Positions 1 to 13,941 of a stretch of DNA of 64,000 bases are shown here, piece after piece. The notes under the pieces were generated by a model that ran no database searches, was not told where the DNA came from, and saw only the letters and a list, made by a program, of their open reading frames with translations. A program made the translations under genes and the position numbers. The stretch's first letter is position 1, and each line of letters starts with the position of its first letter. The stretch is from the NCBI GenBank assembly GCA_035624615.1, contig DASPRE010000090.1, forward strand, positions 682 through 64,681, read 5' to 3'. The DNA is from Burkholderiales bacterium (GTDB lineage Bacteria; Pseudomonadota; Gammaproteobacteria; Burkholderiales; JAHFRG01).

Positions 1-563
1 TCCGGAAAGCGACCGGCAAAGGGATCCTGTTTCTTCGCCCGGTCGTGCAGAACCGACATGGCGGCTTCGGTATTCGCAGCGGTTTCAAGGGAAGGGAAAA
101 ACAGTGATGCGCCGCTTTTCTGAAGTGCAATTAGGGTGGCGATTTGCTCATTCAATTGGCGAAGATCCTTGAGCGGAATATAAAGTGGGCCATATTTGCG
201 TATGAATCGCCGCTCGGCGCTCACATCGGTACGGACGCTGAGTATCAGGTCGGGTCGCGCAGCCGCGTACGCCCGGATTCGGTCACCCAACTGGGTCGCG
301 AACTCTAGCGGTGGGCCACTTTTCGCACCACGTATTACGATTCCCAGATGTTGAGAGCCTTCCATACGGTTGCGAAGTGTCTGGGCACCGCGTACCGCAG
401 GGGAATCGGCTGGTAAGAGTGCTTCGAGATCAGACCTTAGGTTCGCATACAGGTGTACCGTTGCACATCCGGCTGGGACCGTACTCGCGAAAGCCAATAG
501 GAGTACCGCGATGCGCAAGCGGCGGCTGGTCACGAGCTTTTGGAGCCACGCCAAAGCGTTCAC
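1..563 (-). CDS. MMPL/RND-superfamily lipid exporter, N-terminal part (runs off left edge; not in ORF track)
   Basis: Hand translation from GTG at 563, which overlaps the TGA of the upstream gene (GTGA), gives an open frame to base 1: MNALAWLQKLVTSRRLRIAVLLLAFASTVPAGCATVHLYANLRSDLEALLPADSPAVRGAQTLRNRMEGSQHLGIVIRG... An N-terminal TM helix followed by an xDLxxLLPxxSP motif is typical of MMPL proteins. Confidence 0.72.
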   Translation of the reverse strand, partial: MNALAWLQKLVTSRRLRIAVLLLAFASTVPAGCATVHLYANLRSDLEALLPADSPAVRGAQTLRNRMEGSQHLGIVIRGAKSGPPLEFATQLGDRIRAYAAARPDLILSVRTDVSAERRFIRKYGPLYIPLKDLRQLNEQIATLIALQKSGASLFFPSLETAANTEAAMSVLHDRAKKQDPFAGRFP

Positions 564-1981
564 GCGATGTAATCCATGAGTTGCATTGCGGCAACCGTCG
601 CCCGAACCGCGAGCCCGTGAAGCGGCTTGCACGGCAACCCGGGCAGATTCTCTCGGAACCACGCGAGTCCGCTGTCACCCGTGACGACGTCGTTGCGAGC
701 CAACAGGTTGGTAATCCAGCTGCCAGCGGCTACCCCGAGCGCAAGACCGTGCCCGCACCAGCCGACGGCGTGCAGAATATTTGGCGCGTCCGAGCATCTG
801 CCGATGGCCGGCAATCCATCCAGGACATAACCGATCGTGCCGCTCCACGCGTGCGAAATCCGCAGGTCTTCGCGAGCGAGGTCCGGAAAGGTTGCGAAGA
901 GTTTTTGCTGCAGATCTGTCAGGGTGTACGCCGGGATGCTTTCGATGTTGGCGCATTGGGCCGGGCAGGGACGTGGCTTGCCTCCACCGAAAATGAGGCG
1001 ATTATTGCTCGATAACCGAAAGTAATTGAATATTCGGCGCGCCTCCACAACGCCTTCCCGGCCGGCCCATCCAATGTTGGCGAACAAGGTGCGAGGGATC
1101 GGCTCAGTAGCGAGCACCTGTAATTGCAGCGGTATGATGCGGCGACAAAGCCGTCCCAAATTGCGCGCGTAACCGGCCGTGGCAAGGACAACCTGGTCGG
1201 CAATCACTTTCCCGCCGCTTGCCAAGGCCAGGCACATTCTGCCGAAGCCTGCACATCGCGTTAATGCGGAGACGGGGCTGCCTTCAAAAATGCGGGCATT
1301 ACGATCCGTTGCCGCCCTGGCGAGTCCTGCGACCAGCTTACCGGGGTGCAACATCCCGGCAGTGGACAGCCGAAGCGCCGCTGGCCCGCTACTTGCATTG
1401 CCCGGTGTAGGAGGCAACCGTATACATTTCGCCAATTGGTTGTCATTAAGCAACTCGACGCAGAATCCGCGGGCGTTGAGCCAGTCTGCCTGAGCTGATA
1501 GGCGACGACGCCCGGCCGCAGAACGCGCCCAATGAATCTGACCTGTGAAAGTCAGCTCGCAATCGATATGTTCGGTTGCGACAAGGTCGCCCACCATTTT
1601 CACGGCGCGCAGAGTTTCTCGATAGAGTGCCGCCGCACCGACATCGCCCAGCCGTCTGATCAATGCGAGCAGGTCTGGGCCCACTCCGGGTCCCAACATA
1701 CCCGTGTTGCGACCCGAGGCGCCAGAACCTACATACCCGGCCTCCAGCACGACGACCTGAAGCGACGGATAACGTAACAGCAAGTGATATGCGGTCGACA
1801 GCCCGGTGACACCGCCGCCTACAATGGCCACATCGGCACGAATAGTCTCCTTGGGGCAAGTCTCGTACCGTACGCGAGAATTCTCACCCCAAACGGGAGA
1901 TTCGATCATGGCGATCTCCGGGCGAAATCTGGATTTTGAAAATTCCCCGCCGCGACATCGTCCCCTTGTGTCTTCGACCAT
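560..1981 (-). CDS. FAD-dependent oxidoreductase, DAO/PuuB (gamma-glutamylputrescine oxidase)-like
   Basis: DVAIVGGGVTGLSTAYHL Rossmann motif, GASGRNTG, HPGKL, and C-terminal GWCGHGLALG. An alternative ATG start lies at 1909. Confidence 0.85.
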   Translation of the reverse strand: MVEDTRGRCRGGEFSKSRFRPEIAMIESPVWGENSRVRYETCPKETIRADVAIVGGGVTGLSTAYHLLLRYPSLQVVVLEAGYVGSGASGRNTGMLGPGVGPDLLALIRRLGDVGAAALYRETLRAVKMVGDLVATEHIDCELTFTGQIHWARSAAGRRRLSAQADWLNARGFCVELLNDNQLAKCIRLPPTPGNASSGPAALRLSTAGMLHPGKLVAGLARAATDRNARIFEGSPVSALTRCAGFGRMCLALASGGKVIADQVVLATAGYARNLGRLCRRIIPLQLQVLATEPIPRTLFANIGWAGREGVVEARRIFNYFRLSSNNRLIFGGGKPRPCPAQCANIESIPAYTLTDLQQKLFATFPDLAREDLRISHAWSGTIGYVLDGLPAIGRCSDAPNILHAVGWCGHGLALGVAAGSWITNLLARNDVVTGDSGLAWFRENLPGLPCKPLHGLAVRATVAAMQLMDYIA

Positions 1982-1997
1982 GAACGGGTTTCTAAAC

Positions 1998-2933
1998 TCA
2001 TCGCACCTTTACCCGCAGTGATCGCTGGAGCAATGTCAACCGCGCAGGTAGGCGTCCAACAATTTCGCCGTCAAGCTCCAGCAGCACACGGGAAGGACTT
2101 GTGGCCGTTACCTTGCTGGCGCGAAAAAGCTGGGTGCCTGCTTCGTGAATATGGGCCCCGTTATAGATAAATCGGCGCTTGCTGATAAAGTCCAACAAAC
2201 CGAAACCCGACCACAGTGTCACGTCGAATCTTGCATCATCGACCAGGGCATGCGGAGCGACATACATGCCGCCACCGAAATACTGCCCATTGCAAACCGC
2301 GCATGTAGTAACTGAATACTCGTGCGGTGATTCGTCGTCCAAAGTTATTGTGATGATTTGATCCTGGTAGAAGAGCAGGCTCTGTACTGTCGCCAGAGTA
2401 AAAGCCAACGAGCCGCTGAAGCGCTTGAGCGTCGGACTGAGGATGCGGGCGATTTGTCCGCTACAGCCAAACGAGGCAACGTTGAGAAAGACTCTTTCCA
2501 CGGTCTTTCCATCGTGATCGGTGAAAACGGCGTGGCCTACGTCAATGGGCCTGCTCTCGCTACCACCTAATCGTGCACACGCGTCCTCAAGACTAGTTGC
2601 GCCGAGGGTCCTGGCAAAATCGGATCCTGTGCCCTGTGGGACAACGCCTAGCATCGCGGCTGGGGCTACTGCGCGACCCTCCTGAAAGAAGCCGCACAAG
2701 ACCTCGTTTAAGGTTCCGTCCCCGCCCACCGCCACAATCATGTCAAAACTGTCTCGAAGCGCGCGAGCGCTTAGGCTCGTCGCGTGCAATGGTCCGGCGG
2801 TAAAGGCGTGCTCGAAAGCGCCAACCGCGTCTCGAATTAAAACAGCGATTTGCTCCCAACGCCGGCCGGTGGCGCCGGCAGCAGAAGCCGGGTTGACGAT
2901 GACCATTGTGCGCAGTTTGTCTTTGGCGGTCAT
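1998..2933 (-). CDS. Diacylglycerol/sphingosine kinase family protein (YegS-like; VlmJ-like by context)
   Basis: IVNPASAAG, VAVGGDGTLNEV, PQGTGSDFAR, GQYFGGG and LDGE are DAGK-family motifs. Confidence 0.9.
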   Translation of the reverse strand: MTAKDKLRTMVIVNPASAAGATGRRWEQIAVLIRDAVGAFEHAFTAGPLHATSLSARALRDSFDMIVAVGGDGTLNEVLCGFFQEGRAVAPAAMLGVVPQGTGSDFARTLGATSLEDACARLGGSESRPIDVGHAVFTDHDGKTVERVFLNVASFGCSGQIARILSPTLKRFSGSLAFTLATVQSLLFYQDQIITITLDDESPHEYSVTTCAVCNGQYFGGGMYVAPHALVDDARFDVTLWSGFGLLDFISKRRFIYNGAHIHEAGTQLFRASKVTATSPSRVLLELDGEIVGRLPARLTLLQRSLRVKVR

Positions 2934-2939
2934 CGCGAC

Positions 2940-4019
2940 TTACAAGGACCGAGTCAGCAGGAGAAGATCAAAGACAGCGCGCACCGATAAAGGTCTAGCG
3001 GCGAGAAATTCGCGCTCGATTATGTCCGGTGCCCACTTGAGCTTATATTGCGCCTGGCTCTCCGCCGGATAGATAGCGCCGCCATACCGGTAGAGGAGGG
3101 GCACTAGCCAAGCCGCCATGCGGTTCGCACCCGCAAACTCAGGACCTCCCACGACAAAGGGAGTGAAGCCAAAATGCAAATACGGCACTCCCTCGGCCAT
3201 CATGACCTCGATAGCCCGTGCATTGCATAATTCCAGGGCTCCCGGCGGGGCTAAGGGAAGCCGCCGACTCAAATCGTGCAGGTAACCGGGCGCCCGCCCC
3301 CATGAAGGAACGTAGGTAATGAAGGCCACGCATCGGTCGGTCGGATCAATGGCTGCAAAAATCCGCCGACGCACGTCCTCTGGCGAGCCAATCTCGCCAA
3401 TCATGAAATCAAGCTCTCTCTTGCTCTTGGCCCTGAGCCACGCCTGACTGACTGAATGCAGCTCGGCAAACGTCATTTCGTTTCGAGGCCAATCGACGCC
3501 AAACTCAACAACCCTCAGGCCGGATGCCCGGGCACGACTAATCTTGTTGCGCAGCTGCATTTTTTTTGTGCCGCGGAGCGTGAAGTTTTTCAGTGAAAGG
3601 CCGAAGGTAGTGCCGATCTGGTTGATCGAGAATCCGCGATCGCGAAACAGCTGGACCTGCTCGGTACGTAATTGAACGACAAGCACGCGCCGCCGACGCT
3701 TGGATGCGAAGGCAAGCAGGCGGTCAAGCAAAATGCCCCGCTGCGCTTGGGGTGCCTGGACACCACCCAGGGCAATCACATGTCGCCCCTGTTCCCTGAA
3801 GGAAATGAATCCGCTGATTCCCGGTACTGTGAAACGCTGATTCCTCGAAGAAAGCATAAGAAAGCCGGAAGGATGATCAATCAATGCCTCCACAGATTCT
3901 TCGCGTCGCGGCAATTTCATATCACTGGTTGCGGACCGAACATCTGAGCCTTCAGTGTCTTCCATAAGGGTCGTAACCCTGCGGCGAAAATTCAAATTCA
4001 TCGGTGAATTAGTTGCCAT
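2940..4019 (-). CDS. Stand-alone DUF2156 / MprF C-terminal-like aminoacyl-tRNA-dependent transferase (VlmA-like)
   Basis: No TM flippase domain. Motifs FTLRGTKKMQLRNKISRA, ELDFMIGE, GYLHDLSRR, LHFGFTPF and YPAESQAQYKLKWAP match the DUF2156/VlmA family as I recall it. Confidence 0.8.
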   Translation of the reverse strand: MATNSPMNLNFRRRVTTLMEDTEGSDVRSATSDMKLPRREESVEALIDHPSGFLMLSSRNQRFTVPGISGFISFREQGRHVIALGGVQAPQAQRGILLDRLLAFASKRRRRVLVVQLRTEQVQLFRDRGFSINQIGTTFGLSLKNFTLRGTKKMQLRNKISRARASGLRVVEFGVDWPRNEMTFAELHSVSQAWLRAKSKRELDFMIGEIGSPEDVRRRIFAAIDPTDRCVAFITYVPSWGRAPGYLHDLSRRLPLAPPGALELCNARAIEVMMAEGVPYLHFGFTPFVVGGPEFAGANRMAAWLVPLLYRYGGAIYPAESQAQYKLKWAPDIIEREFLAARPLSVRAVFDLLLLTRSL

Positions 4020-5083
4020 TACCGCTGAACTGCACCGACATTAAGCGCTTGGGCCAAAGCAGGGCTTCGACGCACGCGCCAGATTCTGGCATCAACTAGG
4101 TAGTGGTGGAACGCGACCCCCCAGCACAGCCCAAGCACCACGTTTCGGGCCGTTTCACTTGTCAGGGCGACCACGGTGGGGACTCGCAGGCCATACCAGA
4201 CGAGGCCAAGCAACAATCCGCCCGCAAGGTAGGGCACGAGACCCCCCAACGGGCGGCGGCCGCAGCCTGCCTCGTATTGCCAAACTATCCGATGGTATTG
4301 GAGGTTGTGGAAAATGGTGAGCGTGGCGAGGATCGTGAGCAAATGAGAGAGGAGAGCGAAGACCAGCATGTGAAATACGATCACGATGGCCAGCAGCAAA
4401 TGTTTTGGTCCTGGACGAAACGGCTCGTATCGGCCAGAGACGGCGAGTATTACGGCCGCTCCCATTAACAAGCAAAACGCCACATCCAGGATGAATGTTA
4501 GTTGGGGCAGCAGGGCGCTAGGAACGAGTTGCGGCAGCCCGCTGTGGAGATATGGCTCGCCAAGGGAAAAGCGTATAAACGGGTAAAGGCAGCCGGCCCA
4601 AAGCATGAAAGAATCGAGCGACTGACCACGCTGATCGTTCTCGCCGGCCCGCCTTCGGTAGAGCGCGAGAAATCCATAATGCTGCCGCACCAGATGCCAG
4701 TAGGCCCATAGGTAGGCAGCAAGGAGAAAATAGCTGAATAGTGTTCCCTGCAGCCGAAGCGCCGCATCGGTGAGTGCGAAAACGGGACCTATGGCAAGTA
4801 TCAGCCACCACCGGGGTTTTGGAATTCCGGCTCGTGAATTCGTGTCCGGTGCGAGATAGCTGCGCGCGTAAGTGGCCCAAACGTGCGTACCGTCGAACAG
4901 CACCCCCCATAAAAAAACCACAAGGATGACGGGATCGCTCGGGGAAAGATGCGCGCTATCCGGATATGGAGTGGCAACGAAAAAGACGAGCAGAAAAAGC
5001 CCGGCAATGACCGAGCCCTGAAACCAAAGCAAGTCATCGCGCCGCGAAATTATCCATGGGAGCGAAGGGTGATTGCTAACCAT
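4019..5083 (-). CDS. Multi-pass membrane protein with several His motifs, function unknown
   Basis: About 8 hydrophobic segments; DGTHVWATY, YWHLVRQHYG, FHNLQYH, FHHYLVD. Start re-called at ATG 5083, which overlaps the stop of the upstream gene. Confidence 0.7.
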   Translation of the reverse strand: MVSNHPSLPWIISRRDDLLWFQGSVIAGLFLLVFFVATPYPDSAHLSPSDPVILVVFLWGVLFDGTHVWATYARSYLAPDTNSRAGIPKPRWWLILAIGPVFALTDAALRLQGTLFSYFLLAAYLWAYWHLVRQHYGFLALYRRRAGENDQRGQSLDSFMLWAGCLYPFIRFSLGEPYLHSGLPQLVPSALLPQLTFILDVAFCLLMGAAVILAVSGRYEPFRPGPKHLLLAIVIVFHMLVFALLSHLLTILATLTIFHNLQYHRIVWQYEAGCGRRPLGGLVPYLAGGLLLGLVWYGLRVPTVVALTSETARNVVLGLCWGVAFHHYLVDARIWRVRRSPALAQALNVGAVQR

Positions 5084-6293
5084 ATTGAGGCTCCGGACTT
5101 GTTGCGAAAGAGGACCAGATCCGATCTTGAATGAAGGACCCCATAGGTGAGCCAGCGAACGCAAAGGCGCAGCGATGCAGAACGTCGCCGACCCGGCCGC
5201 CGAGGGCAAATAGCAGGCTCATCCAGTGCGAATTGCGGATAATCGCGGCATTGTAGCGGCGCCGCTCCCGTTCGTAGGCGGCAAAGCACGCGTCGATCTC
5301 GGCGGCCGCGGCGTTGCACTCGAGGGCAGTGCCCAGATGGCGGGCGAGCGCTGCGGCGTCCTCTATCGCCATCGTCATTCCCTGAGCCATCACTGGATTG
5401 ATGACATGGATGGCGTCGCCGAGCAACACGGCCCCGTGCGCCGAATAACTCGGCGCATGTGTGCGCCACAGCTTATACAAGTAAGCCCCCTCGGCAACCG
5501 GCCGGCGGCCCGCTAGCAACCGGGAGCGTCCCTCGATGTGCGAGTATTTCTTTTCTATTGAACCGGAACGAAACAAGTGTTCATGCTCCGAACGAATTAT
5601 CGCCGCGAGGCCGAGACGGTTGACGCCCGGAACGACCAGCACGCCGCCGTCGGGATGCAATTCAGTGCGCAGTACATCGGGCATGCCGACCGGGCGGTCG
5701 ATGTCCACAATGAATAAACTGTGGTTATAGGGAGCACGGCGGACCTCAATCCCTAGTCCTGCTCGGACGACAGACTTCGCGCCATCAGCGCCAATTACTA
5801 CGCGGCAGCTCAGTTGCTGCTCATTTCCATCGCTCCCTTTGATCAAGACACCCCGCACACGGTCGCCTTCCTTGATCAGAGACAACAGGCGTGTGCCATA
5901 TCGGACCTCAACACGCCCCGTTGCTACCGCCGACTCAACAAAAGAGCACTCGATTTTGGGATGTGGCAGCACGAGATATGGATCGGTGGCCTCAGGCAAA
6001 GCGAGTGGAACGTCCAACAATAGGCCATCGCGGTAATGGAAAAATTGCATCGTGTTTATCGGGCGCGCCCCCGCTGCGTAGCATCGGTCCAATGCGCCCC
6101 ATCGCTTGAGCAATGCAGTCACCGGGGGAAGCAGGCTTTCACCGCGGTTGATGTTGCCTGCCGCTAGGTGCCTTTCGATAAGCAGCACGCGAATTGCGCG
6201 GTTGTGGACAAGAGCCAACGCGCAGGCCGTGCCGCCGACACCGGCACCGACAATGATGACATCGTAATCGAATGGCTGAGGTGCGCTGCTCAT
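5076..6293 (-). CDS. Single-component FAD-dependent monooxygenase (group A, UbiH/squalene-epoxidase-like)
   Basis: IIVGAGVGG, VIGADGAKSVVR (DG motif) and LLGDAIHVINPVMAQGM (GD motif). Confidence 0.88.
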   Translation of the reverse strand: MSSAPQPFDYDVIIVGAGVGGTACALALVHNRAIRVLLIERHLAAGNINRGESLLPPVTALLKRWGALDRCYAAGARPINTMQFFHYRDGLLLDVPLALPEATDPYLVLPHPKIECSFVESAVATGRVEVRYGTRLLSLIKEGDRVRGVLIKGSDGNEQQLSCRVVIGADGAKSVVRAGLGIEVRRAPYNHSLFIVDIDRPVGMPDVLRTELHPDGGVLVVPGVNRLGLAAIIRSEHEHLFRSGSIEKKYSHIEGRSRLLAGRRPVAEGAYLYKLWRTHAPSYSAHGAVLLGDAIHVINPVMAQGMTMAIEDAAALARHLGTALECNAAAAEIDACFAAYERERRRYNAAIIRNSHWMSLLFALGGRVGDVLHRCAFAFAGSPMGSFIQDRIWSSFATSPEPQYG

Positions 6294-6303
6294 TAGTCGC
6301 CTC

Positions 6304-6717
6304 CTAATGCCCCGGTTGGCTGCCAGGCTCGAAGGGCAGTGCCCAGGGTTTCGAAAAGTTGCCCAGCAAACCGCGATCTCCGGACAGGTGGATCGGCACT
6401 GCTACCATCGCCCAGTCCGGGCCTCCGGCGGCGAGTGCCCAGAGTGCGACCGCGGCACCCACGACAACATAGTTATGGGTCAGGTTGTAGAGCACGTAAT
6501 AGATGCGTGGAATTTGTTTGCCGCCGGAACTGCGAAACGCCAGTGCTCCTGGCAGATAGCCAACCAAATCGATAAGCGCAAAGGCGGCGATAAACCGGCC
6601 CCAGGAGATCTCATCAAAGTGCGCAACCACCAGAGCGGTGAAAATTACGACTATGGCAACGTGTTCGGCTCGCATCCACCAGGAAGTGCCTTGCTTCGGA
6701 ACGAAGGTTGTGCTCAT
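6304..6717 (-). CDS. Small 4-TM membrane protein, DUF4260-like; resembles the VlmO membrane hydrazine synthase
   Basis: IDLVGYLPGA, YYVLYNLTH, PIHLSGDRGLLGNFSKP and FEP. Candidate metal ligands are D50, H81, H110 and D114. Confidence 0.7.
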   Translation of the reverse strand: MSTTFVPKQGTSWWMRAEHVAIVVIFTALVVAHFDEISWGRFIAAFALIDLVGYLPGALAFRSSGGKQIPRIYYVLYNLTHNYVVVGAAVALWALAAGGPDWAMVAVPIHLSGDRGLLGNFSKPWALPFEPGSQPGH

Positions 6718-6726
6718 TGCTGTTCC

Positions 6727-9207
6727 TCAGGCTGCGCCCATGACAGTGGTCAGATCTTGGTCGGGCGAGTATTCGCGCACAGCCCGTGGTAAAGCGAGAT
6801 GGAAACCGTGGCGATCGGCGAGCGCGAGCATGTGATCCACTTCTGCCAAGGACACGTTGTAGCCAACACCAAAATTACGAGTCTCACCCGACAGGGCTAA
6901 AAGAATTGTTTCCGCCAAACAGGCCAGCGTGACGCCGGGCGGCAAGTTATTGAGATTTCCGACTCCAAACTCGGTATTGGGATCCGGCAACGCGACCTGA
7001 CCGCCATCAAAAACAAAAAGATCATGTCGGGCGCGAATTGCGGCAGACGTGTCGGGCGGCTTGGCCACGTCGCAGATGATCGTGCCTGGCGCGAGCGATG
7101 CGGCTTCAAGCGCCGGGCGAGCCGCGGCTGTAGCAGTCAAAATGATTTGGCAGTCTTTAAGTACCGAAATGTCGTTAGCAATTTCGACCGCCGGCAGTCG
7201 AGTTCTTAGCTCATCGGCCAGGGTCTGCAGCGCTTTTACTGGCCGGCTCGGGTTGCCAACCAGAATCAGGCGCCGGAGTCGCTCGCGCGCAAGCAAGCGC
7301 GCACAAAGGCTGCCAACCGACCCGCGGGCGCCAACCACGGCTACGCAAGCCTGGCTGAGGCGCAAATGCCGCGCATCCGCCGCGGCCAGGATTGCTTTTA
7401 CCGCCATTCCCGCGGTAAGCGCATTGCCGGTGGTAATTGCAGGTCCCCGTCCGCATGCTGAAAGGCCGCGTCGGCTATAGGGGGCGGTATGCCCGCCGAG
7501 GCCGACAATGCGTGCCCCTAGGCTTGCCGCCAGATCAACCGCCCTATTTATATCCTGGGCGGTCTCGCGTATTCCGCGCAACGCCATTTCCTCTGGCAGG
7601 ATTGGAAGCGCTAAGATGAGTCCGTCAACGCTCTCGCCAGTAGCCGAATGGATGGTAGGGGCACGCATTACGACTCCGGGAGCCAATGCGCTGGTATAGG
7701 CGCACACGCGCCGCAGAACCGCATCATTGAACCCGTGAAGCGACGGGTTGGTTACCTCAAGATCCTCAGGGCGTGTGTAGTGACCCAGCCACGCGTACTT
7801 TGGCTTCGGAGCATCTTTGGGTAACCGTGTAGGTAATAGCGGGGCAGGGCCCGGATACGCGGTGTGGACTGCGAGGGGAAAGCCGTCGAACGCGCCGATT
7901 GCCCGCAGGATGGTACCGGTCGTGTCTTGCTGCAGCGCCTGGAAAACTCCATCGATCGCTTCGAGTGCCATCTCCAATTCGTGCTGCGAGATGATGAGAG
8001 GAGGTGTTATCCGAATAACATCGGAATTCCCGAGCGTTGGAAGGACCAGGACAGATCCTAATTGCGCTACCGTCGCCGCCACTGCATAGCTGTATAAACC
8101 CTGATTCGCGAGAAACGACAGGAATGTGCCCTGATGTTCTGGAGGGGAGCGCAACTCGATTGCGCTCATCAGCCCGCGACCACGCACGGCAGCTATAATC
8201 TGCGGATAACGTGTGGCCATCTGATTCAGGCGCTGCAACAGAATCCCGCCCCGCCGACTCACGTCTGCGCAAAACCCGTCGCTCGTCAGTATTTCCAGTA
8301 CCTTCAAACCGACTCGGCAGGCAACGTTATTGTTGGCAAACGTGGAGGAGTGTAGAAGCGAAAACTGCTCGTCCCAGAACTCCAGCGAGCTGAAACAGGC
8401 GCTGAGCGGGAATAAGCCCCCACCAAGCGCCTTTCCAAGCAACAGCACGTCTGGCTCGATCCCATCGTGTTCACAGGCGAAAAGTCGTCCAGTCCTGCCT
8501 AGCCCAGTTTGAATTTCGTCCAGGACCAGCGCTACGCCGTGCTGTGAACACAAACTGCGGACTCGCTTAAGATAACCAGGTGGTGGAAGATGAACCCCGC
8601 GCTCCCCCTGGATGGGCTCAAGAAAAAAGGCGGCAATTTTATTCCCGTCGCGGCTTAATCGGTCCTCCAATGCATCCGTGTCACCGAACTCAATAAACTC
8701 AACACCGGCCGGCGATGGGCCAAATGGTTCTGCGTATTGCCGCTGTCCGGTAAGCGCGAGGGCTCCCATGGTCTTGCCATGAAAGGACCCGGTCGCAGCC
8801 AGAATGATGGATCGGCCTGCACGTCTTCGGACCAGCTTGATCGCCGCCTCAACGGCTTCCGCACCCGAAGTTGTAATTATTCCGCGGGACAGATTTCCCG
8901 GGGCCAGTTCGGTTAGCGCATGGGCGAGTGCTTCAGCGTGACGGGCTCGATAAGGCTGAATCATGGCCGGTTCGCCACTGTCCAGCGCGGCACGCGCCGT
9001 CTCTATTATTTGGGACGCATTGTGTCCAAAAGCCAGCGCCCCGTATTGAGCATAGCAGTCCAGGAAATGTCTGCCGTCCGCATCGATGAGCCAGACCCCA
9101 TCGGCATGCTCCCACATACGGTCCATTCGTAGCAGCGCGAGCAGCCGGCGAAGTGTCGGATTGAGTCGACTGAGGTTTGTAGCCTCACTTTGCGCTCGAT
9201 CAAGCAT
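6727..9207 (-). CDS. Fusion of a class III PLP aminotransferase and an acyl-ACP (thioester) reductase-like domain
   Basis: N-half: SGAEAVEAA, FHGKT, EPIQGERG, DEIQTGLGRTG, GKALGGG (PLP Lys). C-half: LGARIVGLGG, TTGNALTA, VAVVGARGSVG, CDVAKPPD, TLACLAETILLAL, matching the cyanobacterial AAR pattern including the catalytic Cys. RBS GAGG upstream. Confidence 0.85.
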   Translation of the reverse strand: MLDRAQSEATNLSRLNPTLRRLLALLRMDRMWEHADGVWLIDADGRHFLDCYAQYGALAFGHNASQIIETARAALDSGEPAMIQPYRARHAEALAHALTELAPGNLSRGIITTSGAEAVEAAIKLVRRRAGRSIILAATGSFHGKTMGALALTGQRQYAEPFGPSPAGVEFIEFGDTDALEDRLSRDGNKIAAFFLEPIQGERGVHLPPPGYLKRVRSLCSQHGVALVLDEIQTGLGRTGRLFACEHDGIEPDVLLLGKALGGGLFPLSACFSSLEFWDEQFSLLHSSTFANNNVACRVGLKVLEILTSDGFCADVSRRGGILLQRLNQMATRYPQIIAAVRGRGLMSAIELRSPPEHQGTFLSFLANQGLYSYAVAATVAQLGSVLVLPTLGNSDVIRITPPLIISQHELEMALEAIDGVFQALQQDTTGTILRAIGAFDGFPLAVHTAYPGPAPLLPTRLPKDAPKPKYAWLGHYTRPEDLEVTNPSLHGFNDAVLRRVCAYTSALAPGVVMRAPTIHSATGESVDGLILALPILPEEMALRGIRETAQDINRAVDLAASLGARIVGLGGHTAPYSRRGLSACGRGPAITTGNALTAGMAVKAILAAADARHLRLSQACVAVVGARGSVGSLCARLLARERLRRLILVGNPSRPVKALQTLADELRTRLPAVEIANDISVLKDCQIILTATAAARPALEAASLAPGTIICDVAKPPDTSAAIRARHDLFVFDGGQVALPDPNTEFGVGNLNNLPPGVTLACLAETILLALSGETRNFGVGYNVSLAEVDHMLALADRHGFHLALPRAVREYSPDQDLTTVMGAA

Positions 9208-9527
9208 GATAGCTCGCCTCGTTAACCTCTCCCCGGTAAATGCGGTCGATTGCGACAGAGGAGATTTTGTCCAGCAATGTGTAGGCGCGGATGCGGTAGC
9301 CGACGAATATGGTTAATGCCCGCCAGCAAGGCGAAAACGCGTGTGTGAAAGATGGAGATTTCAGAACCGAACTGAGCCGTTGCCAAAAACCACGAGCAAC
9401 TGAATGGCGTTTGAAAAAAATGAAAATACATGCGCCTCCTAATATTGTGGCCTTTGCCGCCACCAGCGATTGCGCTGGGTTTGGCCGTTACTCTGTCACA
9501 TGGCGCATTACGGATGGGTAACGATTC

Positions 9528-9584
9528 GGTTACAGATTGCTTACTTACTTGCGTACCACCACGACTTGTAAGCGATCTGTAACC
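9528..9584. promoter_or_regulatory. 17-bp inverted repeat in the divergent promoter region of the cluster
   Basis: GGTTACAGATTGCTTAC (9528-9544) and GTAAGCGATCTGTAACC (9568-9584) are 16/17 complementary, with a 23-nt spacer. Confidence 0.6.
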
Positions 9585-9668
9585 AATATGTTAGCGATTG
9601 GTATGTCGCGGTTTGGTACCGTGGGCGTCGCGAATAGAACATCCCGATGGACTAAATGCAAAATCAAG

Positions 9669-11006
9669 ATGGCTGTTAGCGCAAGCCGAATTCAGAACGC
9701 GGTCGAGTTACTGGAATATGTAGCCGTCAGTGCCGGCATGATGTTCGGGGCTTCTTGTTTTCTGGTCCTTGGATTTATCGCCGAGGCCAATTCCGTCCGC
9801 AACATAGCCCTGGCGATCACCATTGCGGCAACCTTATGTATATCTACGGCTCTTGCCGTTGGCGAAATGGCCAGCCGCTTTCCATCGGCACCCGGAATTC
9901 GCACCTACATTAAATGTGCGTTTGGGGATGAGATCAGCCTCTTTTTTACCTACCTGTCGCTGTTAGTCGCCATTCTTTTCGCGGGAATTGAGATCAAGGT
10001 GTTTTGGGACGCAGTGTTGCCGGGAACTTCCCCGCATGCACGCGCCGTAGCTACATTCGCTATGATTGGCGTTCTGGGCTACCTGAACGTAACAGGACGC
10101 GAACTGCCGCGCCTTATTCAGGTGCTGATTTGCTCAGCGCTTGTGGCCGGGACTACTGCCGTATCGTGGGTTGCCATGACCCGAATAGACGTGGCGCTTG
10201 CCTACGCGCCAACCGGCCCGCAGGCATCATTCATATCCGCCATCGGCATTGCCTTCTTTGTTTTTATCGGTTTCGAATGGGTGACGCCAGCTGCCAAGTC
10301 GCCCGAGGCGTCGCGACGACTCATACCAATAAGCATGATTATTGCAATTGCGACACTTGCGATTACGTACCTGTTGTTTGCGGTGGCTCTGAATTTGGCC
10401 TTGCCGAGCGCCGATTTGCTGCAATCCAAAATACCTCACGTGTCGCTCGGCGGGCGGCTGTTCCCCGATCATGGAGCGCTGATAATGCAATGCCTGTCCG
10501 TTCTGGCATTGGTAACCATACTAAATGCGGGAGTCATTGGCGCGTCCCGTCTGCTTTATTTCCTGGGCCGGGACCGATCATTCTTTAGGTGGCTAAACGA
10601 GCGCTTGTCGATCCTCAATTCTAAAGGCGTTTCTTCCGCGAGCGTTGTGCTGCTGTGCGGTCTGTGCCTGCTTTCCTCACTATTGGAGATTTATCTGGAC
10701 TCTACCCAAAACATCGCTGAGCTGTGCGCCGGCCTCTACTGCTTGGTCTACTGCGCGTTCGTTGCATCACATATTCGGCTGCGCAAACAACCCGTAGATA
10801 GGGTTTTATTTCGCAGCCCTTTGCCCATCGGCCTTTATTATGTACTAGCCGCCATCTTGTTAATGCTTGGCATTGCAACGTTTCTTGGTTCAGTAGACCA
10901 CATTTCAACTAGGCTCCCGTTGCTCACGCTGATTGTCTTTCTGTCCGGTGCCGCTGCTTTTTACGTGGCCAAGTCAAGGCGTCTAGCAACATACCGAAAG
11001 ACGTGA
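9669..11006 (+). CDS. APC-superfamily amino acid/polyamine permease
   Basis: About 12 TMs; GMMFG, GEMASRFPSAPG, FFVFIGFEW, GASRLLYFLGRD. Start re-called at ATG 9669 (the ORF track extends to 9537). Confidence 0.85.
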   Translation: MAVSASRIQNAVELLEYVAVSAGMMFGASCFLVLGFIAEANSVRNIALAITIAATLCISTALAVGEMASRFPSAPGIRTYIKCAFGDEISLFFTYLSLLVAILFAGIEIKVFWDAVLPGTSPHARAVATFAMIGVLGYLNVTGRELPRLIQVLICSALVAGTTAVSWVAMTRIDVALAYAPTGPQASFISAIGIAFFVFIGFEWVTPAAKSPEASRRLIPISMIIAIATLAITYLLFAVALNLALPSADLLQSKIPHVSLGGRLFPDHGALIMQCLSVLALVTILNAGVIGASRLLYFLGRDRSFFRWLNERLSILNSKGVSSASVVLLCGLCLLSSLLEIYLDSTQNIAELCAGLYCLVYCAFVASHIRLRKQPVDRVLFRSPLPIGLYYVLAAILLMLGIATFLGSVDHISTRLPLLTLIVFLSGAAAFYVAKSRRLATYRKT

Positions 11007-11018
11007 AAAAACATTGCC

Positions 11019-11387
11019 ATGTCCGCAAAATCATCAGCGCTGGCTTTGCTAGAAACACTTGAAAAATTTCGCTCGAAAGTAAACGGCGATTCTCGTTTGA
11101 CGAATATTTTGCGAGGTTGGGAGCCAGTAATTATGCTCGAGGCGCTGAACACGCAGTGGAAGCGATATCTTCCCGTTCACGAATGTCACATTACCGAGAT
11201 CACATCGGACTTCAAGGATGCTTCGCATGTTGTCCGATTGCGATCCTCGGAGGAAACATTGATTGCGATTTTTGAAGGTAGATACAATCCAGTGGAGGCA
11301 TTTTTGAACGGCGAATTAGAATTATTTGCGACCGACAAGGACCAGCTTAAGCTAGACGCCATCAGCCTGCTGCTGTGGGGCATATAA
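11019..11387 (+). CDS. SCP2 sterol/lipid-carrier domain protein
   Basis: 122 aa; the C-terminal VRLRSSEETLIAIFEGRYNPVEAFLNGELEL pattern is typical of SCP2 domains. Confidence 0.7.
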   Translation: MSAKSSALALLETLEKFRSKVNGDSRLTNILRGWEPVIMLEALNTQWKRYLPVHECHITEITSDFKDASHVVRLRSSEETLIAIFEGRYNPVEAFLNGELELFATDKDQLKLDAISLLLWGI

Positions 11388-11421
11388 ATCGTACCATTTA
11401 TCATTGAATCGGGAACCCATA

Positions 11422-12369
11422 ATGAACTCCAGCAATTTAAACCGGCCGGCAGGCGCCGAGGCCCAGCCCAATCGAGCGACACCGACATATAGCGTTCAAA
11501 ATTGGGGCAACGGCAGGTGGGATATTCAGCAGTGGCTCGAACGAACCGCATGGCGAACGTTAAAGGACACAGAATATGGGCGTCCCAGGATCGAGAAGGG
11601 CATCTTGCCCGAGCTATTCAGCGATGGGCTGCTGCGACAGGTTTGTTTGATCGATATCGCCACGTTTATTGAAGCAGAGCGGACATCATTTGAGGCAGTG
11701 GCCGGCCTGCTGCGCTGTGCTCCGGATGAGAACAGTAAAGTTTATCTCGGTACCCAGGTAATGGACGAGTGCCGGCATTTTGAGGTGTTTTGCCGGCGCA
11801 TGGCTGATTTTGGCATTTCTCCCGAAGAGCGCAACAAGCTTGTTAAACGTTTTGCGACTCCCGCGATCAGGAAATTCTACGACTTGGTACTCGAGCAGGT
11901 GGATAAACGAGACTTTATTGCAGGCTGCTTGGCGCAGAACATAGTGATGGAAGGCATGTCCTATCCGGTTTATCGATATGAGATCAAATACTGGTCAAGG
12001 ATCGACTCGTCTTTAAGTCAGATCATTCGTGGTGCTTTTGCCGATGAAGTACACCATGTTTCTTATGGAGAAGCGATCATCAAGCATCACATAAAGGGAC
12101 TTGATCCATCCAAGAAATCGAAGCTACAGGCTCTAATAAGCGAATTTTCCGGATTGATGACGGAGGCGTTTGAGCAGGTAATCAGTCACTATATTGGCTT
12201 GTACCAGGAATGTGCGAACGAGCATATGTCACTGATGGCCAATATCGAAATTTTTCCGGGAAGGCTTATATCTTCGGTTTCGGAAGAAGATCAGGTCCGC
12301 CTGCTTCTTGGAGAGATAAGGCGTGAACATGCTCAACGTGCAGCTCGAATCGGGCTTTCCGCAAGTTGA
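11422..12369 (+). CDS. Ferritin-like non-heme diiron enzyme, VlmB-like
   Basis: Two E...ExxH repeats: FIEAE / TQVMDECRH and VMEG / ADEVHH. ATG at 11422 with an upstream GGGAA (the track starts at TTG 11404). Confidence 0.8.
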   Translation: MNSSNLNRPAGAEAQPNRATPTYSVQNWGNGRWDIQQWLERTAWRTLKDTEYGRPRIEKGILPELFSDGLLRQVCLIDIATFIEAERTSFEAVAGLLRCAPDENSKVYLGTQVMDECRHFEVFCRRMADFGISPEERNKLVKRFATPAIRKFYDLVLEQVDKRDFIAGCLAQNIVMEGMSYPVYRYEIKYWSRIDSSLSQIIRGAFADEVHHVSYGEAIIKHHIKGLDPSKKSKLQALISEFSGLMTEAFEQVISHYIGLYQECANEHMSLMANIEIFPGRLISSVSEEDQVRLLLGEIRREHAQRAARIGLSAS

Positions 12370-12510
12370 TCCGGGAAGGTTTCTCGTCTGGCCCTCGGCG
12401 CATGGACTCGGCGAGCAATATTGCGGGTCACAAGGTGCCTCGTCACATAGATTCGTAATTACTTTGGGCTGGCCGACTGCCGGGCAAACACGTTTTCAGT
12501 AATGGCATCC

Positions 12511-13941
12511 TCAGGAAGTTGCCCGACGTCCTTGGGCAACCGATGCAGAAGTGGCAGCGCACGCAGCGCGATCGGTTTCATCGGTAAGTGCACGCAATCG
12601 GTCGCTGATTTGCACCGGATACGGCGAACTTCGGTCTAGCGTTCTCAACGCGGCCGGCAGTCGTTGCAACGCGGTCTCGCAATAAGTTCGCGCCGCAGTG
12701 AGAGATGGTGTAGGTGCAATACGCTTTCCGGCGCGCATTACCGGCATAATCAACGGTACGCCCTCGCATTGGTCGCCTTCAACGGTTACCACGTCACCGC
12801 TCGCATGCCCAGCCCCGTCGAAGCGCCGAAATACCTGCTTTCGCCCGGGCCACGTAGCCTTACCCTCCGAGCGTTTCCTGCGTGCGCGTCCTGCGTACTC
12901 TTGCAATTTGTACGCGCAGTCTAGAGCCGGCGCATCCTCGGAAGTTACCAGGCTGGTGCCAACGCCAAATCCATCAATAGGCGCTCCCTCTGAAAGGATG
13001 CGGTGGATGAGTTGCTCGTCGAGACCACCACTCGCGAAGATGCCGATCGCGTGCAGGTTAGCGTCATCAAGGATTCGTCGCACGCGCCGCGCATGTTCGA
13101 CAAGGTTACCGCTATCGATTCGTACTGCACGGATATTGATACCGTCGTGTTGCAGCTTGCGGGCCAATTCAACAACCTTCGCAGCCCCGGCTTCAGTATC
13201 ATAGGTGTCGATCAGCAGCACGGCGTTTTCGGGATAAGCGCGGGCGAAGCGTTCGAACGCGAACAACTCGTCGTCATGCGCCTCGATGAACGAGTGCGCC
13301 ATGGTGCCGTAAAGCGGAATGCCAAAGCGCTTTCCGGCGAGCGCGGTAGCAGTTCCACCGTACCCGGCGAGATAACTCGCGCGAGCAGCGAGCAGGCCAG
13401 CCTCGGCGCCGTGGGCGCGACGCAGCCCGAAGTCCACCAGCAGTTTTCCCGGCGCCGCCAGCACCGCTCGCGCAGCTTTTGAGGCAACCACGGTTTCGAG
13501 TTGCAGCAGCGCCACGATTCGTGTCTCCACTAGTTGTGCCTGCGGGAGCGCCGAGGTCACGCGCAAGATGGGCTCGTCCGGAAAGAAAGGTGTGCCTTCA
13601 GGCATGGCATCTACGTCGCCAGTGAAACGTAATTTCGCCAGCCAATCTAGAAATTTGGGACGGAAGCGGTACTTTGTCTCGAGCCAAACTAGTTCATCCT
13701 GGGTAAAGTGAAGGTCTTCCAGGAATTCGAGCACCTGCTCCAGGCCCGCGGCAATGAGAAAATTTCGGTTTAGCGGCAGCTTGCGTACGAAGAACTCGAA
13801 CACGGCTGTATCTTGCATTCCATACTCGTGATACGCCGCGAGCATGGTCAATTGATAGAGGTCCGTCAACAGTGCACTGGCGCCAGGGTCCGGGGCCACG
13901 GAAACTTCCTGGACAGCGAAGGTTGAAGAGCCTGACTTCAT
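12511..13941 (-). CDS. pncB: Nicotinate phosphoribosyltransferase
   Basis: LLTDLYQLTM, DFGLRRAHG, GTMAHSF, LLIDTYDT, VRIDSG, FASGGLDE, FGVGT. Confidence 0.95.
   Translation of the reverse strand: MKSGSSTFAVQEVSVAPDPGASALLTDLYQLTMLAAYHEYGMQDTAVFEFFVRKLPLNRNFLIAAGLEQVLEFLEDLHFTQDELVWLETKYRFRPKFLDWLAKLRFTGDVDAMPEGTPFFPDEPILRVTSALPQAQLVETRIVALLQLETVVASKAARAVLAAPGKLLVDFGLRRAHGAEAGLLAARASYLAGYGGTATALAGKRFGIPLYGTMAHSFIEAHDDELFAFERFARAYPENAVLLIDTYDTEAGAAKVVELARKLQHDGINIRAVRIDSGNLVEHARRVRRILDDANLHAIGIFASGGLDEQLIHRILSEGAPIDGFGVGTSLVTSEDAPALDCAYKLQEYAGRARRKRSEGKATWPGRKQVFRRFDGAGHASGDVVTVEGDQCEGVPLIMPVMRAGKRIAPTPSLTAARTYCETALQRLPAALRTLDRSSPYPVQISDRLRALTDETDRAACAATSASVAQGRRATS

What the first reader, a model, noticed from the sequence alone, without database searches (positions are those of the whole stretch)
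6304..6717. 137-aa membrane protein with a Asp/His/His/Asp set: candidate membrane hydrazine synthase
Four TM helices carry D50 (IDLVGY), H81 (YNLTH), H110 and D114 (IHLSGDR), a plausible intramembrane metal site. The motif string matches my recollection of VlmO, which rearranges O-aminoacyl-hydroxylamine into an N-N bond. Pipelines would label this gene hypothetical.
Basis: partly seen in the sequence, partly recalled or inferred. Interest (0 to 1): 0.78.

Follow-up and report, generated by a model that had tools for sequence, protein, structure and literature searches.

The report
VlmO-type membrane hydrazine synthase gene
This small membrane protein is a true relative of VlmO, the enzyme that forges the nitrogen-nitrogen bond of Streptomyces azoxy antibiotics. 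Here it sits in a fatty-amine version of that pathway in an uncultured Burkholderiales bacterium, so it is a new member of a recently defined enzyme family rather than a new kind of enzyme.

Summary
The ORF is real. It lies at 6304-6717 on the minus strand, encodes 137 aa, and carries D50, H81, H110 and D114 exactly as described. Pfam and NCBIfam give no hit. BLASTP to the two VlmO-like proteins in the "valanimycin-like" clusters of Kitasatospora setae gives 47% identity (E 5e-36) and 52% identity (E 1e-43). Those proteins carry D51/H82/H110/D114, the residues published as essential for VlmO, and they align with the window's four. In 242 homologs the four residues are invariant, or changed in a single sequence.

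The gene is one of seven tightly packed, same-strand genes. The others encode:
- a transaminase-thioester reductase fusion (fatty acyl to fatty amine);
- a PqsL-like flavin monooxygenase (probable N-hydroxylase);
- a VlmA-like tRNA-dependent aminoacyl transferase;
- a VlmJ-like kinase;
- a DAO-type oxidase;
- an unknown His-rich membrane protein.

A VlmB-like diiron oxygenase is encoded on the divergent arm. Most of this cassette recurs in MAGs of at least six phyla. Natural VlmO-VlmA fusions exist.

This is a new member, in a distinct non-actinobacterial clade, of the VlmO family. The activity, the metal, the product and the 3D convergence of the four residues remain untested.

The parts
6304..6717 (-). 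VlmO-family small integral membrane protein (137 aa), the candidate hydrazine (N-N bond) synthase. Putative metal ligands are D50, H81, H110 and D114.
6727..9207 (-). Fusion of an N-terminal class-III PLP transaminase and a C-terminal acyl-thioester reductase (826 aa). It has the TamH/PigE design and is predicted to turn a fatty acyl thioester into a fatty amine.
   Evidence: Aminotran_3 at E 1.8e-93 and a PigE model hit. The C-terminal part matches PigE structure 4PPM (E 2e-33) and cyanobacterial acyl-ACP reductase 6JZQ (E 4e-16). TamH has the same domain order (PMC9594044).
5076..6293 (-). Single-component group-A FAD monooxygenase (405 aa), the probable amine N-hydroxylase. It stands in place of the two-component VlmH/VlmR.
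   Evidence: FAD_binding_3 at E 1e-38. The best solved relative is PqsL (2X3N/6SW1/6SW2, E 2e-21), which N-hydroxylates 2-aminobenzoylacetate (PMC7248105). The role proposed here is inferred.
4019..5083 (-). Conserved polytopic membrane protein (354 aa from the ATG at 5083) with invariant His and no known family. It may be a membrane metalloenzyme such as a desaturase or hydroxylase of the alkyl chain. Function unknown.
   Evidence: H109, H172, H177, H301 and H369 are invariant and H306 is in 16 of 17 homologs (ORF numbering). There is no Pfam hit even at E 10 and no PDB sequence hit. The AF2 model has pLDDT 86.8 and no PDB fold match. The gene co-occurs in 17 of 25 non-actinobacterial loci.
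2940..4019 (-). VlmA-like stand-alone LPG_synthase_C (DUF2156) protein (359 aa). It is predicted to be an aminoacyl-tRNA-dependent transferase that makes the O-aminoacyl-alkylhydroxylamine substrate of the VlmO-like protein.
   Evidence: PF09924 at E 1.8e-47. It is 37-40% identical to the Kitasatospora VlmA-like genes. Natural VlmO-VlmA fusions exist.
1998..2933 (-). DAGK/YegS-type kinase (311 aa), VlmJ-like. No VlmK (MmgE/PrpD) partner lies in the cluster.
   Evidence: DAGK_cat and YegS_C. It is 28% identical to the kinase of a Kitasatospora azoxy-type cluster. The only MmgE/PrpD gene in the genome is on another contig.
560..1981 (-). DAO-family FAD oxidoreductase (473 aa). It is conserved both in this cassette and in actinobacterial azoxy-type clusters. 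Its role is unknown; oxidation of a C-N or N-N bond is possible.
   Evidence: PF01266 at E 1e-62. Present in 21 of 28 loci and in Kitasatospora brasiliensis locus L029.
11404..12369 (+). VlmB-like ferritin-like diiron oxygenase (321 aa) on the divergent arm. It is predicted to oxidise hydrazine to azo and then azoxy.
   Evidence: Weak Ribonuc_red_sm and AurF hits. It is 26% identical over 290 aa (E 1.4e-18) to the AurF-like gene next to K. setae vlmO. Homologs at 23-35% identity lie directly upstream of the VlmO-like gene in most loci.
9537..11006 (+). Amino acid permease-family transporter on the divergent arm. The true start is probably the ATG near 9669.
   Evidence: AA_permease_2 at E 2.6e-25. 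Both K. setae valanimycin-like clusters also encode one. A permease-VlmO fusion protein exists (P0262).
11019..11387 (+). Small SCP2-like protein (122 aa), a possible lipid carrier. Among the loci examined it is found only in this genome's two cluster copies.
   Evidence: A weak SCP2 hit at E 0.007, below the cut-off. No homolog in loci L001-L028.

Best explanation
ORF 6304-6717 (minus strand) encodes a VlmO-family integral membrane metalloenzyme. By analogy with VlmO, it takes an unstable O-(aminoacyl)-N-alkylhydroxylamine and rearranges it within the molecule. The alpha-amino nitrogen attacks the hydroxylamine nitrogen, the N-O bond breaks, and an N-alkylhydrazino acid with a new N-N bond results. 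D50, H81, H110 and D114 would hold the catalytic metal, which is reported as probably iron for VlmO.

Inferred pathway in this operon:
1. The transaminase-reductase fusion converts a fatty acyl thioester through the aldehyde to a long-chain amine.
2. The PqsL-like FAD monooxygenase N-hydroxylates the amine.
3. The VlmA-like enzyme esterifies the hydroxylamine oxygen with an amino acid from the housekeeping aminoacyl-tRNA pool. No dedicated synthetase is present.
4. The VlmO-like protein forms the hydrazine.
5. The VlmB-like diiron oxygenase oxidises it to azo and then azoxy.
6. The kinase, the DAO oxidase and the His-rich membrane protein tailor the product.

Shown here: homology, conserved catalytic residues, membrane character, conserved gene partnership and gene fusions. 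Inferred: every chemical step, the metal, the amino acid used and the final product.
For: Homology:
- 47% identity (E 5e-36) and 52% identity (E 1e-43) to the VlmO-like proteins of the two K. setae valanimycin-like clusters (genome identified).
- 44-45% identity to Streptomyces homologs.

Catalytic residues:
- The published essential residues D51/H82/H110/D114 (PMC11705231) are present in the K. setae and Streptomyces proteins.
- They align with D50/H81/H110/D114, which are invariant in 241-242 of 242 sequences.
- Conserved partners one helical turn away (D50/Y54, Y77/H81, H110/D114) point to one conserved face per helix.

Membrane protein. Family members give the same weak DUF4260 signal that was reported for Ady6 (PMC9379638).

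Context:
- VlmA-, VlmB- and VlmJ-like genes, an amine-forming fusion and an N-hydroxylase-like monooxygenase sit in one operon pair.
- The cassette is conserved in 25 non-actinobacterial loci from several phyla.
- VlmO(N)-VlmA(C) fusions appear in at least five protein clusters and as uninterrupted frames on Mb-scale Planctomycetota contigs. This ties the two consecutive steps together.

Selection: dN/dS is 0.25 between the genome's two copies.
Against: - There is no biochemical or metabolite evidence for this protein or for any member of its non-actinobacterial clade, which is separated from the actinobacterial proteins with support 100.
- Convergence of the four residues in 3D could not be measured, because no coordinates are returned. 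No solved structure resembles the model.
- The N-hydroxylase is of a different class from VlmH/VlmR, so hydroxylamine formation is inferred only.
- The VlmB-like protein is only 26% identical to the K. setae one.
- VlmK is absent, so the end product cannot be a simple valanimycin analogue.
Confidence: 0.8

Rival explanations
1. The protein belongs to the VlmO/DUF4260 fold family but is not a catalyst here. It would serve as a membrane anchor or scaffold that brings the VlmA-like transferase to a lipid-soluble substrate, with the N-N bond forming spontaneously or on another enzyme, such as the His-rich membrane protein or the diiron protein.
For: VlmO-VlmA fusions are equally what a membrane anchor would give. 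Before 2024 AzdO was discussed as a possible recruiter (bioRxiv 10.1101/2023.10.13.562208). A second conserved membrane protein with invariant histidines is present.
Against: A pure anchor would not keep D/H/H/D, Y54, Y77 and R115 invariant across 242 sequences from many phyla. VlmO microsomes are reported to catalyse the reaction, and the four residues are reported as essential (PMC11705231 and PMC13755311). Actinobacterial clusters lack the His-rich protein yet make azoxy compounds.
Confidence: 0.08
2. The cassette makes an aminoacylated lipid with no N-N bond, for example an O- or N-aminoacyl fatty amine or alcohol, for envelope remodelling in the manner of MprF. The small membrane protein would be the translocation or handling partner of the MprF-like synthase domain.
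For: An LPG_synthase_C domain, a DAGK-type lipid kinase and an adjacent MMPL transporter are present. The VlmO-VlmA fusion mimics the membrane-domain-plus-synthase layout of MprF. In the azodyrecin pathway, N-alanyl fatty amines appear as shunt products.
Against: There is no similarity to the MprF membrane domain; no Pfam hit at E 10. A protein of 137 aa with about three TM helices is far smaller than a flippase domain. The cassette always carries a VlmB-like diiron oxygenase and usually a flavin monooxygenase, and plain aminoacylation needs neither. The MMPL gene is not conserved in other loci. Homology to VlmO is strong.
Confidence: 0.07
3. The gene is a decaying or silent remnant of a horizontally acquired cluster in this MAG, or a binning artefact, and has no present function.
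For: The distribution is patchy: 1 of 9 other genomes in the genus and 0 of 51 genomes of other families in the order carry it. Two diverged copies of the cluster sit at contig ends.
Against: All genes of both copies are intact, and dN/dS is 0.25. The contig continues into 50 kb of housekeeping genes such as tmk and holB. The identical gene occurs in several independent assemblies. Bin contamination is 0.34%.
Confidence: 0.05

Closest known systems
VlmO of the valanimycin pathway (Streptomyces viridifaciens Q84F35; Kitasatospora setae E4N6B1)
   Same: A small integral membrane protein, 47-52% identical to the window protein. The D/H/H/D set sits at equivalent positions. It is encoded with VlmA-type and VlmB-type genes. 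Its reported activity is O-seryl-isobutylhydroxylamine to hydrazine.
   Different: The window protein is shorter (137 versus 158-184 aa as translated here) because it lacks the C-terminal tail. It falls in a separate, non-actinobacterial clade. Its predicted substrate carries a long fatty alkyl group rather than isobutyl. The cluster has no VlmD, VlmH/R, VlmK or VlmL.
AzdO/Ady6 (azodyrecin), ElaO (elaiomycin) and KaO (KA57-A) of Streptomyces
   Same: VlmO homologs that act on fatty-amine-derived hydroxylamines. The azodyrecin cluster likewise builds the amine from a fatty acid with a reductase and a transaminase, uses the cellular aminoacyl-tRNA pool, and contains a desaturase.
   Different: Those clusters use two-component VlmH/VlmR-type N-hydroxylases and separate reductase and transaminase genes. 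Here there is a single PqsL-like monooxygenase, a fused transaminase-reductase, and an unclassified His-rich membrane protein in place of a recognisable fatty acid desaturase.
Cupin-type zinc-dependent hydrazine synthetases (for example the cupin domains of ForJ and PyrN)
   Same: The same chemistry: rearrangement of an O-aminoacyl hydroxylamine ester into a hydrazine. The ForJ cupin domain is reported to accept the VlmO substrate.
   Different: They are soluble cupin folds fused to or paired with MetRS-like enzymes. The review reports no homology to VlmO, and Pfam detects no cupin domain in P0001.
Pfam DUF4260 (PF14079)
   Same: Family members P0119 and P0080 give weak, sub-threshold hits (E 0.002 and 0.045). 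The same weak relationship was reported for Ady6.
   Different: P0001 itself gives no hit, and the scores are below the gathering threshold. DUF4260 has no assigned function.

Membership tests
VlmO family (membrane hydrazine synthases of aliphatic azoxy pathways) | Significant full-length sequence similarity to VlmO or VlmO-like proteins encoded in valanimycin-type clusters. | tested here: met
   BLASTP gives 47% identity (E 5e-36) and 52% identity (E 1e-43) to the two K. setae proteins.
VlmO family (membrane hydrazine synthases of aliphatic azoxy pathways) | The four residues reported as essential (D51, H82, H110 and D114 in VlmO numbering). | tested here: met
   D50, H81, H110 and D114 align with them. 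They are invariant in 241-242 of 242 family sequences.
VlmO family (membrane hydrazine synthases of aliphatic azoxy pathways) | A small integral membrane protein with about 3-4 helices. | tested here: met
   Three strong hydrophobic segments plus a short fourth helix. AzdO is described as having three TM helices.
VlmO family (membrane hydrazine synthases of aliphatic azoxy pathways) | Encoded together with a VlmA-type tRNA-dependent aminoacyl transferase and a VlmB-type diiron oxygenase. | tested here: met
   The VlmA-like gene is at 2940-4019 and the VlmB-like gene at 11404-12369. The partnership is conserved across loci. VlmO-VlmA fusions exist.
VlmO family (membrane hydrazine synthases of aliphatic azoxy pathways) | The four residues line one cavity in the 3D model, forming a metal site. 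| not testable with these tools
   The AF2 model is confident (pLDDT 82.4), but no coordinates are returned. Only the i/i+4 pattern of invariant residues supports a shared face.
VlmO family (membrane hydrazine synthases of aliphatic azoxy pathways) | Catalysis of the rearrangement from O-aminoacyl-hydroxylamine to hydrazine, and metal (iron) dependence. | not testable with these tools
   This needs microsome or proteoliposome assays and metal analysis.
Valanimycin-type gene cluster in the strict sense | Presence of VlmD (valine decarboxylase), VlmH/VlmR (two-component N-hydroxylase), VlmL (dedicated SerRS) and VlmK (MmgE/PrpD). | tested here: not met
   None of these is in the cluster. The genome's single MmgE/PrpD gene and single SerRS gene lie on other contigs. 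The cluster is therefore valanimycin-like in its N-N core only.
MprF-type lipid aminoacylation system | A large N-terminal flippase/TM domain (LPG_synthase_TM) joined to LPG_synthase_C. | tested here: not met
   The VlmA-like protein has only the C-terminal domain. P0001 has no similarity to the MprF membrane domain.

The most novel reading that the evidence does not exclude
The conserved cassette comprises the transaminase-reductase fusion, the diiron oxygenase, VlmO, VlmA, the flavin monooxygenase, the His-rich membrane protein and the DAO oxidase, with or without the kinase. It may define an unseen class of long-chain N-N-bonded (hydrazine, azo or azoxy) amino-acid lipids. The producers would be uncultured non-actinobacterial soil and groundwater bacteria: Burkholderiales, Myxococcota, Planctomycetota, Methylomirabilota, Acidobacteriota and Binatota. 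In this reading, N-N bond formation happens at the membrane on a VlmA-VlmO two-step machine that is physically fused in Planctomycetota, and the His-rich membrane protein is a new type of membrane metalloenzyme.
Probability: 0.45. Interest if true: 0.75.

Novelty: new member of a known kind. Interest (0 to 1): 0.52.

Why it matters
VlmO is, so far, the only described membrane-bound N-N bond-forming enzyme, and the papers found here describe it and its homologs only in actinomycetes. Firm homologs with the full catalytic residue set now turn up in a conserved fatty-amine cassette across at least six phyla. This widens where hydrazine and azoxy chemistry should be looked for. It also provides short (137 aa) and naturally VlmA-fused variants that may suit structural work. 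Finally, it flags cryptic clusters that annotation pipelines call 'hypothetical' and that have no known products. The family is rare: only 146 clusters at 50% identity among 1.84 billion representative proteins.

Tried and rejected
- Pfam and NCBIfam on P0001 gave nothing usable, even at E 10.
- Neither word-indexed homolog search returned a protein named VlmO; the names were only 'hypothetical', 'integral membrane protein' or 'DUF4260'.
- Foldseek of the model against the PDB gave no significant match. The review states that no VlmO structure has been solved.
- Distances between the four residues could not be measured, because model coordinates are not exposed.
One script failed because a locus file was stored under another name.
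- The idea that the MMPL gene belongs to the cassette was rejected. It is a genuine MMPL, but it has no homolog within 10 kb in any of the 28 related loci.
- The idea that the two cluster copies reflect a mixed bin was considered unlikely. Contamination is 0.34%, and the other 50 kb of the contig has no second copy. It is not excluded.
- The His-rich membrane protein could not be assigned to any family or fold.

Full report
**Observation.** The window has an ATG-to-TAA ORF of 137 codons at 6304-6717 on the minus strand. A GAGGA ribosome-binding site precedes the ATG. The gene starts 9 nt after the upstream gene's stop and ends 10 nt before the next start. Hydropathy gives three strong hydrophobic segments and a weak fourth. 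An AlphaFold2 model built on 25 homologs is confident (pLDDT 82.4, pTM 0.74). It shows long helices 9-32, 39-63 and 71-97 (kinked at H81) and short helices 102-111 and 116-122. 'Four TM helices' is therefore better put as three TM helices plus a short helix carrying H110. Pfam and NCBIfam give no hit.

**Is it a real, constrained gene?** Yes, on four counts:
- A word-indexed search found 221 homologs, all unnamed or 'hypothetical'.
- In a 25-sequence alignment the four residues are invariant. In 242 sequences, including actinobacterial ones, the counts are D50 242/242, H81 242/242, H110 241/242 and D114 242/242. Y54, Y77, R115, G53 and P56 are also invariant.
- dN/dS is 0.25 against a paralog in the same genome.
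- The identical protein is called in six contigs; the four shown come from four separate metagenome assemblies.

**Is it VlmO-like?** A review of N-N bond enzymes describes VlmO as a membrane-bound enzyme that makes the hydrazine intermediate of valanimycin. It reports D51, H82, H110 and D114 as essential by mutagenesis and names KaO, ElaO, AzdO and Ady6 as homologs (PMC11705231; see also PMC13755311). No hit in my searches bore the name VlmO, so I made the link by sequence and context.
- A genome-collection scan with the family alignment found Streptomyces and Actinophytocola homologs at 44-48% identity. The Streptomyces protein P0121 has D51/H82/H110/D114.
- Searching the genus Kitasatospora gave 26 genomes with matches. 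One of them, G043, has a contig of 8,783,278 bp. That is the published size of the K. setae NBRC 14216 chromosome, and the genome paper lists two clusters 'similar to valanimycin biosynthetic genes' (PMC2993542).
- G043 has two VlmO-like genes. One lies beside VlmA-like, VlmH-like (acyl-CoA dehydrogenase fold), AurF-like diiron, PLP-decarboxylase, permease and SerRS genes. The other lies beside SerRS, permease, KS, ACP, diiron, aminotransferase and VlmH-like genes.
- P0001 aligns to them at 47% identity (E 5e-36) and 52% identity (E 1e-43). Both carry D51/H82/H110/D114, in register with the window's four residues.
- Family members give the same weak DUF4260 signal that was reported for Ady6.
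- On a tree, the window protein's relatives form one side of a branch (support 100) against the actinobacterial proteins. This is a distinct, non-actinobacterial clade of the family.
- The family is small: 146 clusters at 50% identity among 1.84 billion representative proteins at E <= 1e-3.

**Context.** On the minus strand, tightly packed or overlapping, lie seven genes:
- An 826-aa protein with an N-terminal class-III transaminase. Its C-terminal domain is related to PigE (4PPM, E 2e-33) and to cyanobacterial acyl-ACP reductase (6JZQ, E 4e-16). This is the domain order of TamH, which turns fatty acyl thioesters into fatty amines (PMC9594044).
- The VlmO-like gene.
- A group-A FAD monooxygenase. 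Its best solved relative is PqsL (E 2e-21), an amine N-hydroxylase (PMC7248105).
- A 354-aa His-rich membrane protein of no known family.
- A VlmA-like LPG_synthase_C protein (E 1.8e-47).
- A DAGK/YegS-type kinase, like VlmJ.
- A DAO-family oxidase.

The divergent arm encodes an amino acid permease, a small SCP2-like protein and a ferritin-like diiron protein. The diiron protein is 26% identical (E 1.4e-18) to the AurF-like gene next to K. setae vlmO. The cluster has no VlmK-type (MmgE/PrpD) gene and no second SerRS; the genome's single copies lie elsewhere. As proposed for azodyrecin, the aminoacyl-tRNA would therefore come from the cellular pool.

**Conservation and fusions.** tblastn of the window's proteins against 28 related loci shows most of the cassette together in MAGs labelled Myxococcota, Methylomirabilota/Rokubacteria, Planctomycetota, Acidobacteriota, Binataceae, and Beta- and Gammaproteobacteria. 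The shared parts are the transaminase-reductase, the diiron protein, VlmO, VlmA, the monooxygenase, the His-rich membrane protein and the DAO oxidase, often with a kinase. In most of these loci vlmA follows vlmO directly. Among the family's representatives, at least five are VlmO(N)-LPG_synthase_C(C) fusions and one is a permease-VlmO fusion. On two Mb-scale Planctomycetota contigs the two parts are one uninterrupted frame. Fusion of the enzymes for two consecutive steps, the first of which makes an unstable ester, is strong support for functional coupling.

**Most likely mechanism.**
1. Fatty acyl thioester is converted to aldehyde and then amine by the fusion enzyme.
2. The PqsL-like enzyme N-hydroxylates the amine.
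3. The VlmA-like enzyme adds an O-aminoacyl group from aminoacyl-tRNA.
4. The VlmO-like protein, with a metal held by D50/H81/H110/D114, rearranges the ester within the molecule into an N-alkylhydrazino acid.
5. The VlmB-like diiron enzyme oxidises it to azo and azoxy.
6. The kinase, the DAO oxidase and the His-rich membrane protein tailor the product.

The homology, residues, topology and gene linkage are shown. All the chemistry is inferred from the characterised actinobacterial enzymes. I put family membership at about 0.93 and the hydrazine-synthase role at about 0.8.

**Rivals.**
- A non-catalytic anchor for VlmA. This is disfavoured by the invariant polar residues and the published VlmO activity.
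- An MprF-like aminoacyl-lipid system without an N-N bond. This is disfavoured by the obligatory diiron and flavin oxygenases, the lack of similarity to the MprF membrane domain, and the non-conservation of the MMPL neighbour.
- A silent remnant. This is disfavoured by intact genes and purifying selection.

**Limits.** No PDB structure resembles the model. The product is unknown.

**Novelty.** The protein is a new member of the VlmO family. The papers available here describe VlmO homologs and the mining for them only in actinobacteria. The wide non-actinobacterial cassette, its different N-hydroxylase, the fused amine-forming enzyme and the unclassified His-rich membrane protein make the cluster a variant worth experimental follow-up.

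Earlier AI notes of this scan reached a similar reading of the cluster. I treated them as leads and re-derived each point.

Noticed in passing
window 1-13836 (contig C25:7-14517) versus genome contig C87:65860-81032: The MAG holds a second, collinear copy of the whole cluster, from the MMPL gene through the NAPRT gene. It is about 84% identical in DNA and 79-90% in protein. It sits at the end of contig C87, while this copy sits at the start of C25. The rest of C25 has no second copy, and bin contamination is 0.34%. This could be a real (perhaps tandem) duplication or two co-binned populations.
   Followed up: partly
window 4019-5083 (-): A 354-aa polytopic membrane protein with H109, H172, H177, H301 and H369 invariant and H306 in 16 of 17 homologs (motifs WHLVRQHYGF, FHNLQYHRIVW, AFHHY). 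It has no Pfam hit even at E 10 and no PDB sequence or fold match, despite a confident AF2 model (pLDDT 86.8, pTM 0.83). It occurs in 17 of 25 non-actinobacterial cassettes and in no actinobacterial one. It is a candidate new membrane metalloenzyme family.
   Followed up: partly
loci L008:10001-10987 and L013:10001-11146; proteins P0241, P0247, P0266, P0273, P0276, P0262: Natural fusions of the VlmO-like domain to the VlmA-like LPG_synthase_C domain; in L008 and L013 (Planctomycetota) the two parts share one frame with no stop. P0262 is an amino-acid-permease-VlmO fusion. P0244 joins a VlmO-like N-terminus to an AEP-TOTE primase fragment and is probably a chimeric call.
   Followed up: partly
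window 5076-6293 (-): The cluster's flavin monooxygenase is closest, among solved structures, to PqsL, the N-hydroxylase of the Pseudomonas alkylquinolone N-oxide pathway. Group-A enzymes of this type may therefore supply hydroxylamines in this cassette, in place of VlmH/VlmR.
   Followed up: partly
window 8001-12000: G+C falls from about 0.57-0.60 over the minus-strand operon (1-8000) to 0.52-0.55 over the divergent permease/SCP2/diiron arm. In most related loci the diiron gene lies directly upstream of vlmO instead, so the cluster looks rearranged here.
   Followed up: no
locus L007 (CAMBFS010000067.1): A contig carrying this cassette (VlmO-like protein 51% identical) is deposited under the label 'MAG: Klebsiella pneumoniae'. 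Given the cassette's other hosts, the label is probably a binning or naming error.
   Followed up: no
window 3-662 (-): The N-terminal 220 aa of an MMPL-family transporter runs off the window start. The full-length paralog on C87 (815 aa) hits Pfam MMPL at E 4e-25. No homolog lies within 10 kb of the cassette in 28 other loci, so it is a lineage-specific neighbour.
   Followed up: yes
genus-level comparison (G170-G178): Only one of nine other genomes in the genus, and none of 51 genomes from other families of the order, carries a VlmO-like gene. The window's cassette proteins are most similar (58-66%) to those of Methylomirabilota/Rokubacteria MAGs rather than to other Betaproteobacteria (about 46-52%). 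This suggests horizontal acquisition.
   Followed up: partly
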